Origin: a virus
Length of the DNA: 53,461 bases
UHGV virus genome: UHGV-0032033
Direction: 5' to 3' (one strand)
Shown: piece by piece, positions 33,887 through 35,355 of the stretch
Numbering within the stretch: the stretch's first letter is position 1
Layout of the letters: each line of letters opens with the position of its first letter
Notes under the pieces: model-generated
Databases searched by the model: none
Seen by the model: the letters and a program-made list of their open reading frames with translations, nothing else
What the model was told of the DNA's origin: nothing
Made by a program: the position numbers and the translations under genes

Positions 33887-34344
33887 AGACGTTAATTATC
33901 GCCGTTGTTGTTTGCATTATTGCCGGGCTGACCGCCGTAACATGTTATTACCAGGGTGAAGCAGCGAGATTGCAGGAAGAGGTCACGACCACGCAAGGCG
34001 CACTGAAAACAGCAAGTAACACTATTCAGCAGATGAAGGAGCGAAACGCAGAGCTATCAAAACTTGATAAGAGGTATCACGATGAAATTAAAGCTATCAG
34101 ATCTGACATTGCCGATCTGCGCACTGGCATTGATAGCGGCGCTATCAGGTTGCACGTCAACGCCGAACCAGTGCGATTACTCGACAATACGGGAACCGCC
34201 AGCCGCATTGATGGAGCCACCTGTAGACTCACTCCCGACGCTGAATCGGCTTATCTATCCCTCAGAGAACAACTAAAAGAGAAAGATGCGAAGATCGCCG
34301 GACTTCAGAGCTATATCAAAACGCAGTGCTTACGCAAAAAATAA
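33874..34344 (+). CDS. Rz: i-spanin (Rz)
   Basis: N-terminal TM helix, coiled-coil periplasmic domain; overlaps endolysin 3' end. Confidence 0.8.
34082..34276 (+). CDS. Rz1: o-spanin (Rz1), embedded in Rz in +1 frame
   Basis: RBS aagagg; lipoprotein signal with lipobox LSGC, Pro-rich mature part. Confidence 0.75.
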   Translation: MKLKLSDLTLPICALALIAALSGCTSTPNQCDYSTIREPPAALMEPPVDSLPTLNRLIYPSENN

Positions 34345-34622
34345 CAGCGCGTGGACGTGTCGCCGTTTCCGCCAGCCAGCCATAACCGGGTCAATCCTTC
34401 CCGCGAGCGACGGCGGAATAGTCAAAAACACGTAATACCGGATCATCCATCCCATTAACAGGTCGGCGCTACCTGGGTAGAAGAAAGCGCCATTCTCCAG
34501 TTTTATAAAATTCTGGAAACGGTACTGATGAAGCGCCGTTTTCAGTGTTTTATGGCTGTTTTCACTCCCTGCGGTGTCGAGTTTTGCGGGGGTTATATTT
34601 TTCAGAATAGGAGATTATTCTG

Positions 34623-35165
34623 ATGGCTAAGGCTAAAGGCATTAAGTTGCCTCAATTCAAAGTCCCGCTCTTTGAGCATACCACTGTTTTCTTTTGCCCG
34701 ACCCGCGAGATGTTCTATGAATTTTGCGAAAAGGCAGGTGTCCCGATCGATCCTGGTTTCGAGCTTTGCGGAGGGTTAACGCTAACCTGTTCTGGTGAAA
34801 GCGGCGGCAACTTTTATGTTGTGGCTGTATTTGACCATGAATTATCAACCCTGGTCCATGAAGTCGCGCACGCCACCTTCCATTGTTTAAGTGATGTTGG
34901 TGTATTAGCTACCACTGATGACAGTCACCCGGCGAATGAGACTTATGCTTACCTGATTGGACGTATGTTTGATGCATTCTTCCCGATCCTGGCTGAATCA
35001 AACGAAGCGGAGGTTGCAGCAATGCAGGCGGCTGAAGTCGTCGAGCAGGCGCTGGAACAGGCAGAACAGCCGAAGGAAGAAGAAAAAACCGCGAAGAAAG
35101 GCAAACGTAAGCCTAAAGCAAAAGAAGCGTATGTGCCGCGCGTAATGAGCTTTAAACGAGGCTGA
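34623..35165 (+). CDS. HExxH-motif protein with Lys-rich C-terminal tail (putative small zinc metallopeptidase-like)
   Basis: LVHEVAHATFH motif; C-terminal KKGKRKPKAK; RBS aggag. Confidence 0.45.
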   Translation: MAKAKGIKLPQFKVPLFEHTTVFFCPTREMFYEFCEKAGVPIDPGFELCGGLTLTCSGESGGNFYVVAVFDHELSTLVHEVAHATFHCLSDVGVLATTDDSHPANETYAYLIGRMFDAFFPILAESNEAEVAAMQAAEVVEQALEQAEQPKEEEKTAKKGKRKPKAKEAYVPRVMSFKRG

Positions 35166-35167
35166 TT

Positions 35168-35257
35168 ATGATTGCGTCAATATTAACGTTTATGGGTGGC
35201 GTGGCGTTCGGATTCATTATTTGCCTGTTTATGGTGATTATGTCTATGCGAGGCTGA
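35168..35257 (+). CDS. micro-ORF 1, hydrophobic peptide (29 aa)
   Basis: RBS gagg in repeated unit gaggctgattATG; MIASILTFMGGVAFGFIICLFMVIMSMRG. Confidence 0.4.
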   Translation: MIASILTFMGGVAFGFIICLFMVIMSMRG

Positions 35258-35259
35258 TT

Positions 35260-35355
35260 ATGGACGCTTACATCATCGCCGGATTAATCGGTATTTCTGT
35301 ATTTATGGTGAGTTTTATTATAGCCGTGCTGATAACCGTAAAGAGTAAATTATGA
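35260..35355 (+). CDS. micro-ORF 2, hydrophobic peptide (31 aa)
   Basis: Same gaggctgattATG unit; MDAYIIAGLIGISVFMVSFIIAVLITVKSKL. Confidence 0.4.
   Translation: MDAYIIAGLIGISVFMVSFIIAVLITVKSKL

What the first reader, a model, noticed from the sequence alone, without database searches (positions are those of the whole stretch)
34623..35165. HExxH-motif protein with a lysine-rich tail directly after the spanin genes
The 180-aa ORF has a single LVHEVAHATFH motif (HExxH with a third His four residues later), Cys-containing N-terminal segments, and a highly basic C-terminus (KKGKRKPKAK). It sits between Rz/Rz1 and the micro-ORF array. A small zincin-like protease with a nucleic-acid- or membrane-binding tail at this position is not a standard lambdoid function.
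Basis: seen in the sequence. Interest (0 to 1): 0.45.

Follow-up and report, generated by a model that had tools for sequence, protein, structure and literature searches.

The report
Small phage zinc-protease-like gene
This is a real, conserved phage gene for a tiny protein carrying the signature of zinc-dependent proteases plus a lysine-rich tail; it belongs to a widespread but never-studied phage family that usually sits just before the DNA-packaging genes, and what it cuts is unknown.

Summary
The 180-aa ORF, its HEVAH motif and its basic tail are all present as described. The window is an mEp021-like (mEpimmI) temperate coliphage, and the gene is the homologue of mEp021 gp49, annotated "hypothetical".

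It belongs to PHROG 1365 (unknown function, no Pfam family). That family also holds P22 HkcC, ST64T/L Orf129 and genes of N4-like phages. Most members are only 110-140 aa.

Across 113 diverged members only G51, H79, E80, H83 and E106 are invariant, and Y110 nearly so. This gives HExxH-x(18-23)-E-x3-Y, a gluzincin-type signature. A confident AlphaFold model puts the two motifs on consecutive helices behind a small β-sheet.

No solved structure matches significantly, SprT-like membership fails, and no metal-site geometry could be measured.

The gene is a late-operon accessory gene. In IMG/VR contigs a small terminase gene lies within 2.5 kb downstream in 58 of 83 cases. The acidic helix plus lysine-rich tail is specific to a few clades and is under purifying selection.

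The best reading is a cytoplasmic minimal zinc metallopeptidase of unknown substrate. It is moderately interesting and is an uncharacterised variant of a known kind.

The parts
34623..35165 (+). 180-aa ORF (stop codon included). It is the homologue of mEp021 gp49 and a member of PHROG 1365, the HkcC/Orf129 family.
   Evidence: dN/dS is 0.10 against MagusPhagus.
34609..34613 (+). Shine-Dalgarno AGGAG, 9 nt upstream of the ATG.
   Evidence: Read from the sequence. It is conserved in MagusPhagus.
34623..34994 (+). Core domain, aa 1-124. This is the part shared with the whole family. It is acidic (aa 13-124: net -11) and has a basic N-terminal peptide.
   Evidence: Profile search, where most relatives are 110-140 aa. 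AF2 model with pLDDT 93.8. Charge calculation.
34665..34673 (+). P15-L16-F17, a near-invariant N-terminal motif: P in 101/113 members, aromatic residue in 111/113.
34773..34775 (+). G51, an invariant glycine at the start of strand β3.
34857..34871 (+). HEVAH (H79, E80, H83). These are the predicted zinc ligands and general base, on helix 74-91.
   Evidence: Invariant in 113/113 members. Helix assignment from the model.
34938..34952 (+). E106-T-Y-A-Y110. E106 is the predicted third zinc ligand. Y110 is conserved on the same helix face (helix 103-123).
   Evidence: E in 113/113 and Y in 110/113 members. E-x3-Y is found in 97/99 unique IMG/VR ORFs that were retrieved with a pattern not containing it.
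34995..35078 (+). Acidic, Ala/Glu-rich continuation of the last helix, aa 125-152, net charge -7. Homologues carry length polymorphisms here (14-aa indel).
   Evidence: dN/dS 0.03.
35079..35162 (+). Lysine-rich, histone-H1-like tail ending in VPRVMSFKRG, aa 153-180, net charge +8. Present only in the mEpimmI clade, with analogous tails in a few other lineages.
   Evidence: dN/dS 0.09. pLDDT 68-73 with no secondary structure.
34345..34622 (+). Highly conserved non-coding leader between Rz and the gene. It contains a 31-aa ORF (34528-34623) with no family match. No promoter-like site was found.

Best explanation
**What it is.** The gene encodes a soluble, cytoplasmic, minimal zinc metallopeptidase of the gluzincin type.
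- H79 and H83 (HExxH, helix 74-91) and E106 (next helix) hold the metal.
- E80 is the general base.
- Y110 probably helps stabilise the transition state.

**When it is made.** It is transcribed with the late operon, between the lysis cassette and the terminase genes. It is an accessory gene, not part of the morphogenetic core.

**What it probably does.** I think it most likely cleaves a protein of the host or of a competing genetic element late in infection, in a conflict or takeover role. In this clade, a rigid acidic helix followed by a histone-H1-like lysine tail tethers the catalytic domain, most plausibly to DNA.

**Shown**
- The gene is real and under selection.
- Family membership is established.
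- The HExxH...E...Y signature is invariant.
- Secondary-structure order, lack of TM or signal peptide, genomic position and constraint on the tail are all observed.

**Inferred**
- Metal binding, peptidase activity, late timing, the kind of substrate and DNA binding by the tail.

**My split.** About 0.6 that it is an active zinc hydrolase/peptidase. About half of that for the conflict-type role.
For: **A real gene under selection**
- 122 clusters at more than 50% identity occur in E. coli prophages.
- 32 of 5,426 complete E. coli genomes carry it, always on the chromosome.
- dN/dS is 0.11 for the core and 0.05 for the C-terminal extension.

**Family**
- PHROG 1365 matches at E 5e-29.
- The profile search finds 292 clusters at 50% identity, mostly 110-140 aa.
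- P22 HkcC, ST64T Orf129 and ECBP1_0082 score 126, 131 and 67 bits on the family HMM.

**Signature**
- G51, H79, E80, H83 and E106 are invariant, and Y110 is present in 110 of 113 members.
- A degenerate DNA pattern covering only GVFD..TL.HE..H recovered 119 family ORFs from 120 IMG/VR loci.
- 97 of the 99 unique ORFs have E-x3-Y 18-21 residues after the second His. The same spacing is seen in thermolysin (H146...E166; established knowledge).

**Model**
- The AF2 domain model has pLDDT 93.8.
- It predicts strands 11-13, 21-25, 51-57 and 63-69, with two short helices (28-38, 44-48) between strands 2 and 3, then the HExxH helix (74-91), then the Glu helix (103-123).
- This matches the zincin core as described by Iyer et al. 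2017 (PMC5512222).

**Weak sequence links**
- Seven of the nine recurrent sub-threshold Pfam hits (families matched by two or more members) are zincin families: SprT-like in 24 of 113 members, DUF4344 in 5, M50B in 3, and DA1, M91 and Aminopep in 2 each.
- A homologue 64% identical is named 'PolyVal Metallopeptidase superfamily domain' by its source.

**Location in the cell and genome**
- There is no TM segment or signal peptide (KD19 maximum 0.98).
- The gene is co-oriented with the late genes and has no promoter-like site upstream.

**Accessory nature**
- It occupies different moron-type slots: before the terminase, the P22 ant moron beside sieA, downstream of tail protein J and an end of N4-like genomes.
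- In one contig it sits next to an Acb2/Tad1-hairpin gene.

**Tail**
- Comparable charged-helix-plus-basic-end extensions occur in at least three other lineages.
Against: **No structural neighbour**
- Foldseek finds nothing below E 0.06, with TM scores under 0.35.

**No sequence match above threshold**
- Nothing passes in Pfam, NCBIfam or the PDB sequences, whether the query is the protein, the family profile or the family consensus.
- Profile-profile comparison gives 12% probability against the enterobacterial SprT family and 4.6% against the predicted peptidase region of P1 DdrB.

**Gaps in the evidence**
- No experiment exists. P22 hkcC is listed as 'unknown function' (PMC2629481).

**Points against the proposed role**
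- The core is acidic and most members lack the tail, so DNA association cannot be a general property of the family.
- There is no PADLOC hit and no direct link to any defence system.
- The strong positional bias towards the terminase is not explained by a pure conflict role.
Confidence: 0.45

Rival explanations
1. It is a DNA-associated protease that serves packaging. Like SprT/Wss1/SPRTN, it would be recruited to DNA through the basic tail. It would remove tightly or covalently bound proteins from the concatemer, so that terminase can translocate it.
For: - A small terminase gene lies within 2.5 kb downstream on the same strand in 58 of 83 IMG/VR loci.
- It is directly adjacent in 32 of 100 loci.
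- TerL is never upstream (0 of 52).
- The same slot is used with different TerS and portal types.
- SprT-like is the commonest sub-threshold Pfam hit, in 24 of 113 members.
- The hhalign alignment to SprT is collinear over 86 columns.
- The tail is lysine/alanine/proline-rich.
Against: - The SprT third His at +6 is absent: that position is L or C in 98 of 113 members.
- hhalign probability is only 12%.
- Most members have no tail and are acidic, with median pI 5.8.
- Family members also sit far from the terminase: P22 hkcC, after tail protein J and at N4-like genome ends.
- P22 itself has no pre-terminase copy (one place per record), so packaging does not require one.
- The lysis-to-terminase gap is in any case a common slot for accessory genes.
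Confidence: 0.12
2. It is a non-catalytic metal-binding or scaffold protein. The HExxH...E site would only hold a structural metal, or none at all. The protein would act by binding a partner, for example as an assembly or regulatory factor for the terminase or prohead.
For: - No fold neighbour was found among solved peptidases.
- The domain is very small.
- There is a strong positional link to the packaging genes.
Against: - The general-base Glu (E80) is invariant along with the ligands in 113 of 113 members, and Y110 is nearly invariant. That pattern is typical of retained catalysis rather than metal binding alone.
- The protein was not annotated as a virion protein after mass spectrometry of mEp021 virions.
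Confidence: 0.12
3. It is a zinc hydrolase acting on something other than a protein, for example an amidase or esterase working on a small molecule or a cell-wall fragment, built on a zincin-like site.
For: - The fold has no close peptidase neighbour.
- One relative lies beside an Acb2/Tad1-type sponge gene, whose targets are nucleotide signals.
Against: - HExxH with a downstream Glu on the next helix behind a β-sheet edge strand is overwhelmingly a peptidase arrangement (established knowledge of clan MA).
- The protein has no export signal, so it cannot reach the cell wall.
Confidence: 0.1
4. It is a prophage moron working for the lysogen, as a superinfection-exclusion or defence protein directed against other phages.
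For: - In P22 it lies next to sieA, in the dispensable ant moron.
- The family is common in prophages.
Against: - It is co-oriented with the late operon and opposite to sieA and mnt.
- No promoter-like site lies upstream in the window.
- No PADLOC model matches.
- It is present in virulent N4-like phages.
Confidence: 0.07

Closest known systems
PHROG 1365: P22/HK620 HkcC, ST64T/L Orf129, ε34 gp70, mEp021 gp49 (all 'hypothetical' or 'unknown function')
   Same: This is true family membership. Full-length HMM matches are significant, the HExxH...E...Y signature is the same, and the core is about 120 aa.
   Different: The window's protein and its mEpimmI relatives add a 56-residue acidic-helix plus lysine-rich extension, which most members lack. 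No member has a known function (PMC2629481).
Zincin-like metallopeptidase (MPTase) domains of phage and plasmid polyvalent proteins (Iyer et al. 2017, PMC5512222; Pfam MPTase-PolyVal)
   Same: - Mobile-element context.
- HExxH on one helix and a Glu on the following helix, behind a small β-sheet.
- One homologue carries this name from its source.
   Different: - It is stand-alone at about 120 aa, not embedded in a multidomain giant protein.
- No Pfam hit to that family appears among the 113 members scanned.
- hhalign to the P1 DdrB C-terminus aligns only the strand plus HExxH (4.6%).
- It was not detected in mEp021 virions.
SprT-like / Wss1 / SPRTN zincins (Pfam PF10263)
   Same: - A minimal zincin.
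- The commonest sub-threshold Pfam match, in 24 of 113 members, best E 1e-4.
- Collinear N-terminal helix, conserved Gly and HExxH in hhalign.
- SPRTN also uses a basic DNA-binding region (my own knowledge).
   Different: - The third ligand is Glu on the next helix, not His at +6.
- No hit passes the cut-off.
- hhalign probability is 12%.
- It has no C-terminal zinc ribbon.
Thermolysin-type gluzincins and 'minigluzincins' (proabylysin, projannalysin; my own knowledge)
   Same: - HExxH followed about 20 residues later by a ligand Glu on the next helix.
- A very small soluble catalytic unit.
- In minigluzincins a C-terminal tail can occupy the cleft, which is a possible analogy for the tail here.
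   Different: - No detectable sequence similarity.
- The Glu helix reads E-x3-Y rather than E-x3-D.
ImmA/IrrE (peptidase M78) of prophages
   Same: A small prophage-encoded HExxH-plus-Glu zincin that cleaves a specific protein (my own knowledge).
   Different: - It is not next to a repressor gene; it lies in the late operon.
- No Pfam match to that family was found.

Membership tests
PHROG 1365 (HkcC/Orf129 family, function unknown) | Significant full-length match to the family profile. | tested here: met
   The window protein matches at E 4.8e-29, residues 1-131 against profile positions 3-124 of 127. All 60 diverse relatives hit phrog_1365.
PHROG 1365 (HkcC/Orf129 family, function unknown) | Family signature P-[LI]-[FY] ... 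G ... [GA]-V-F-[DN]-x4-T-L-x-H-E-x-x-H ... N-E-x-[FY]-x-Y. | tested here: met
   The window protein has all the elements: P15-L-F, G51, AVFD, TLVHEVAH and NETYAY.
Zincin metallopeptidases, gluzincin type | An HExxH motif, conserved and lying on an α-helix. | tested here: met
   Invariant in 113 of 113 members. It lies on helix 74-91 in a model with pLDDT 93.8.
Zincin metallopeptidases, gluzincin type | Third metal ligand is a Glu on the following helix, about 18-25 or more residues after the second His. | tested here: met
   E106 is invariant and sits at the start of helix 103-123. The spacing is 18-21 in 97 of 99 independent IMG/VR ORFs and 23 in this clade. This was tested at the level of sequence and secondary structure only.
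Zincin metallopeptidases, gluzincin type | The three ligands converge on one metal site in three dimensions. | not testable with these tools
   Model coordinates are not exposed, and no metal-aware prediction is available.
Zincin metallopeptidases, gluzincin type | Significant structural similarity to solved zincins. | tested here: inconclusive
Zincin metallopeptidases, gluzincin type | Zinc binding and peptide-bond hydrolysis. | not testable with these tools
   Needs biochemistry.
SprT-like / Wss1 / SPRTN (PF10263) | A match above the Pfam gathering score. | tested here: not met
   The window protein has no hit. 24 of 113 relatives hit only below threshold, best E 1e-4.
SprT-like / Wss1 / SPRTN (PF10263) | A third His six residues after the second (HExxHx5H). 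| tested here: not met
   Position 89 is L in 73, C in 25 and H in 1 of 113 members. E. coli SprT has HELAHLLVWKH.
SprT-like / Wss1 / SPRTN (PF10263) | Profile-profile homology to bona fide SprT. | tested here: not met
   hhalign of the family against 25 SprT sequences gives probability 12% and E 0.0025. The SprT alignment has low diversity, so this test is weak.
MPTase domain of polyvalent proteins (PF18818) | A profile match to the family. | tested here: not met
   It is not among the families hit by any of the 113 members at E<=1. Only a source-given name on P0115 points to it.
MPTase domain of polyvalent proteins (PF18818) | Embedded in a large multidomain (polyvalent) protein delivered with the DNA. 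| tested here: not met
   Family members are stand-alone proteins of 110-190 aa. mEp021 gp49 is not annotated as a virion protein.
ImmA/IrrE (M78) | A profile match, and a position beside the repressor it cleaves. | tested here: not met
   There is no Pfam match. The neighbours are lysis and terminase genes.
Known anti-phage defence proteins (PADLOC) | A match to a defence-system model. | tested here: not met
   None of 60 members has a hit better than E 0.0095, and no model recurs.

The most novel reading that the evidence does not exclude
The family would be a structurally distinct minimal gluzincin with no detectable neighbour among solved structures. Phages would keep it at the head of the packaging module as a guard of late infection. 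It would cut a host sensor or a satellite-encoded hijacker that targets terminase, portal or packaging. Examples of such targets are Avs-type sensors and proteins that redirect TerS. In mEp021-like phages it would be tethered to the DNA being packaged by its histone-like tail.
Probability: 0.1. Interest if true: 0.75.

Novelty: new variant of a known kind. Interest (0 to 1): 0.4.

Why it matters
Classic model phages such as P22, L, ST64T, HK620 and ε34, gut coliphages of the mEpimmI group and N4-like phages all carry this about 120-aa gene. It has always been listed as "hypothetical".

Recognising an invariant HExxH...E...Y site gives a concrete hypothesis that can be tested by mutation, for a gene present in hundreds of phage lineages.

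If it is an active protease, it would be among the smallest stand-alone zincins. It would also be a candidate phage effector with a specific host or competitor target. Its preferred position just ahead of the terminase genes narrows the search for that target.

If it turns out to be inactive or dispensable, it is just one more accessory gene.

Tried and rejected
**Searches that gave nothing useful**
- The afdb50 fold library was not available.
- The search for related loci with the family alignment failed because it had no conserved stretch. I replaced it with a hand-made degenerate DNA pattern, which worked.
- The family consensus sequence against Pfam and the PDB gave nothing.
- The family profile against PDB sequences gave no hits.
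- PADLOC gave nothing.
- No other protein in the window shares the tail, and there is no second family member in the window.

**Leads that turned out false**
- Two giant proteins in the profile search (P0196, P0246) looked like polyvalent proteins. They are chance hits to a repeated KLPxFKIPLF motif.
- P1 DdrB served poorly as a reference for polyvalent-protein peptidases. Pfam does not detect its peptidase domain and hhalign gives 4.6%.

**Literature**
- Searches for hkcC, phrog_1365, anti-defence metalloproteases and SprT-like near terminase found only statements of unknown function.

**Ideas rejected**
- H87 as a metal ligand, and a cysteine metal cluster. Neither is conserved.
- A membrane protein. 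There is no hydrophobic segment.
- A virion component. This is not supported by the mEp021 mass-spectrometry annotation, although low-copy proteins could have been missed.

Full report
**Observation.** The ORF is present exactly as described. It runs 34623..35165 on the + strand, starts with ATG and encodes 180 aa. A strong AGGAG lies 9 nt upstream. The start overlaps the stop of a 31-aa ORF (TGATG).

- HEVAH is residues 79-83, and H87 follows four residues later.
- KKGKRKPKAK is residues 158-167.
- Upstream lie a holin, an endolysin, Rz and an embedded Rz1. Downstream lie tiny hydrophobic ORFs, then TerS, an HNH endonuclease and TerL.
- HExxH occurs in no other plausible gene of the window.

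By my own estimate from residue frequencies, about 0.5% of proteins of this size contain HExxH by chance. The motif alone is therefore not evidence; its conservation is.

**Where the window comes from.** The region matches the mEp021 group of temperate coliphages and phage MagusPhagus at 83-85% nucleotide identity. These are the "mEpimmI", Nus-dependent but non-lambdoid phages (PMC11893012).

- The gene is the counterpart of mEp021_49, and of an equally unnamed MagusPhagus gene. Both are annotated "hypothetical protein" and occupy the same slot between the lysis genes and the small terminase gene.
- Mass spectrometry of mEp021 virions identified 16 structural proteins. gp49 is not annotated as one of them.
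- 32 of 5,426 complete E. coli genomes carry a close copy, always chromosomal and always "hypothetical".
- Against MagusPhagus, dN/dS is 0.11 for the core and 0.05 for the C-terminal extension. Both parts are under purifying selection, although this rests on one pair and small counts.

**The family.**
- Pfam, NCBIfam and PDB sequences give no significant match.
- PHROGs places the protein in phrog_1365, function unknown, at E 5e-29.
- A profile search of 1.8 billion representatives found 292 clusters. Almost all are stand-alone proteins of 110-140 aa that cover only residues 1-130 of this protein.
- tblastn against phage genomes, with HMM confirmation, shows the family includes Orf129 of P22-like phages L, ST64T and ST104, and ε34 gp70. 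These are 42% identical and lie between Rz and TerS.
- A second paralogue is HK620 HkcC. In P22 it is an intact ORF, unannotated in RefSeq, between sieA and orf59a/mnt.
- Small genes near a genome end of N4-like Gamaleyavirus phages also belong.
- The literature calls hkcC a gene of unknown function in the dispensable "ant moron" (PMC2629481). I found no functional study.

**What is conserved.**
- Over 113 sequences down to about 25% identity, the only invariant positions are G51, H79, E80, H83 and E106. Y110 (110/113), F70, P15 and T76 are nearly invariant.
- H19 and H102 lie in clade-specific insertions.
- None of the cysteines is conserved.
- A degenerate DNA pattern encoding only GVFD-x4-TL-x-HE-xx-H gave an independent check. 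It pulled 120 loci from IMG/VR, and 119 hold a family ORF. In 97 of the 99 unique ORFs, E-x3-Y follows the second His by 18-21 residues. The two exceptions are truncated.

The signature is therefore HExxH-x(18-23)-E-x3-Y. That is the gluzincin arrangement, as in thermolysin H142/H146/E166 (established knowledge). It is not the three-His arrangement.

**Structure.**
- AlphaFold2 with the family alignment gives confident models: pLDDT 90.8 for the full length and 93.8 for the core.
- The order of elements is β11-13, β21-25, α28-38, α44-48, β51-57, β63-69, α74-91 (HExxH), then α103 onwards (E106, Y110).
- In the full-length protein the last helix continues to residue 148.
- The last 32 residues have no secondary structure, with pLDDT about 70.
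- This order (helix, small sheet, HExxH helix, Glu helix) matches the zincin core described by Iyer et al. (PMC5512222).

Fold searches do not confirm the assignment.
- Foldseek finds nothing below E 0.06.
- afdb50 was unavailable.
- Coordinates are not exposed, so the metal-site geometry could not be measured.

**Links to known zincin families.**
- When all 113 members were scanned against Pfam, seven of the nine recurrent sub-threshold hits (families matched by two or more members) were zincin families: SprT-like in 24 members (best E 1e-4), DUF4344 in 5, M50B in 3, and DA1, M91 and Aminopep in 2 each.
- One homologue, 64% identical, carries the source name "PolyVal Metallopeptidase superfamily domain".
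- I tested SprT directly. Against an alignment of 25 enterobacterial SprT proteins, hhalign aligns 86 columns collinearly (N-terminal helix, conserved Gly, HExxH), but with only 12% probability.
- The SprT-defining His at +6 is replaced by Leu or Cys.
- The predicted peptidase region of P1 DdrB aligns only over the strand plus HExxH, at 4.6%.

The protein therefore works like a minimal gluzincin on paper. It is not a demonstrable member of SprT-like, MPTase-PolyVal or M78.

**The C-terminal extension.**
- The core (aa 13-124) is acidic, net -11. Family-wide the median pI is 5.8, and 70% of members start with a short basic peptide.
- In the mEpimmI clade the last helix is prolonged by an Ala/Glu-rich stretch (125-152, net -7) that carries length polymorphisms.
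- It ends in a Lys/Ala/Pro-rich, histone-H1-like tail (153-180, net +8) finishing in VPRVMSFKRG.
- Comparable charged-helix-plus-basic-end extensions occur in at least three other lineages.
- Most members have none, so the tail is an add-on for localisation or regulation and is not part of the catalytic unit.
- There is no hydrophobic segment or signal peptide.
- DNA binding is the most plausible role, but it is an inference only.

**Genomic position.**
- In eleven individually inspected contexts, the gene lies between the lysis cassette and TerS in mEpimmI phages, in a 52%-identical relative (4 bp before TerS), in a Klebsiella P22-like prophage and in ST64T.
- It lies just upstream of TerS in an Erwinia prophage (3 bp) and in a phage with an SPP1-type portal (one gene between).
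- Other neighbours include an Acb2/Tad1-hairpin gene, Phage_gp49_66 genes, ParB_N genes and a dNMP kinase.

| Measure in the 119 IMG/VR loci | Count |
|---|---|
| TerS homologue within 2.5 kb downstream, same strand | 58 of 83 loci with enough flank |
| TerS directly adjacent | 32 of 100 |
| TerL within 4 kb downstream | 40 of 60 |
| TerL upstream | 0 of 52 |

- These counts come from redundant contigs, one sequence sub-group and seed-limited marker detection. They show a trend, not a frequency.
- Other members sit after tail protein J in Burkholderia/Ralstonia siphophages, in the P22 ant moron and at N4-like genome ends.
- In the temperate phages inspected the gene is co-oriented with the late genes, and in the window no promoter-like site precedes it.

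**Interpretation.** The best-supported reading is a cytoplasmic, late-expressed, accessory minimal zinc metallopeptidase with an unknown protein substrate.

- I favour a conflict or takeover role. The gene is dispensable in P22's moron and hops between moron slots. It occurs in both temperate and virulent phages. It resembles the peptidase theme of phage polyvalent proteins.
- The bias towards the terminase keeps a packaging-related role alive, for example a DNA-tethered protease that clears proteins from DNA. It also allows the more novel idea of a guard against sensors or hijackers of the packaging machinery.
- Lesser rivals are a non-catalytic binder, a hydrolase acting on something other than a protein, and a lysogen-serving defence gene.

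**Novelty and score.** The window's gene is a new member of an existing but uncharacterised family. The family itself is an undescribed, very small, stand-alone variant of the zincin kind, with no curated profile and no structural neighbour. This clade adds an unusual acidic-helix plus histone-like tail.

A specialist would not find this very surprising. It does turn a long-ignored gene of model phages into a testable hypothesis. I score interest at 0.4.

Noticed in passing
window 35163-35262: The first tiny hydrophobic ORFs after the gene are 94-96% identical at the DNA level to rV5-like myophages (FV3, V5, O157 typing phages). The flanks are not. This suggests recent exchange of micro-ORFs between unrelated phages.
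   Followed up: no
window 36506-37009: An HNH endonuclease gene (PHROG 99, E 1e-60) sits between TerS and TerL. Window 36394-37064 has no counterpart in mEp021 or MagusPhagus, so this looks like a homing-type insertion.
   Followed up: partly
window 34345-34622: The 278-nt non-coding stretch between Rz and the gene is 93-100% identical to MagusPhagus and mEp021 (mostly 97% or more), while the middle of the gene is only 70-75% identical. mEp021 has a 58-nt insertion there that overlaps its annotated terminator. The stretch could be a regulatory or packaging-related element, or simply a mosaic block.
   Followed up: partly
L015 (P22 NC_002371.2 13861-14283, + strand): The P22 RefSeq record leaves hkcC unannotated. 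It is an intact 121-aa ORF between sieA and orf59a that scores 126 bits on the family HMM and has HECAH...NETYCY.
   Followed up: yes
L013 6801-8139 (Erwinia sp. 9145 prophage): A 41-aa ORF with a weak Terminase_2 hit precedes the family gene, and the full TerS starts 3 bp after it. This may be a scar left when the gene was inserted into, or recombined at, the 5' end of TerS.
   Followed up: no
L010 972-1786: A family member lies directly downstream of a gene with an Acb2/Tad1 hairpin domain (an anti-CBASS/anti-Thoeris sponge type). This hints at an anti-defence neighbourhood.
   Followed up: no
window 34754-34930 versus 34333-34694: Nucleotide identity to relatives drops to 70-75% exactly over the catalytic core (aa 45-105), while the first 70 nt of the gene and its leader are 92-100% identical. 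This suggests a recombination boundary inside the gene.
   Followed up: no
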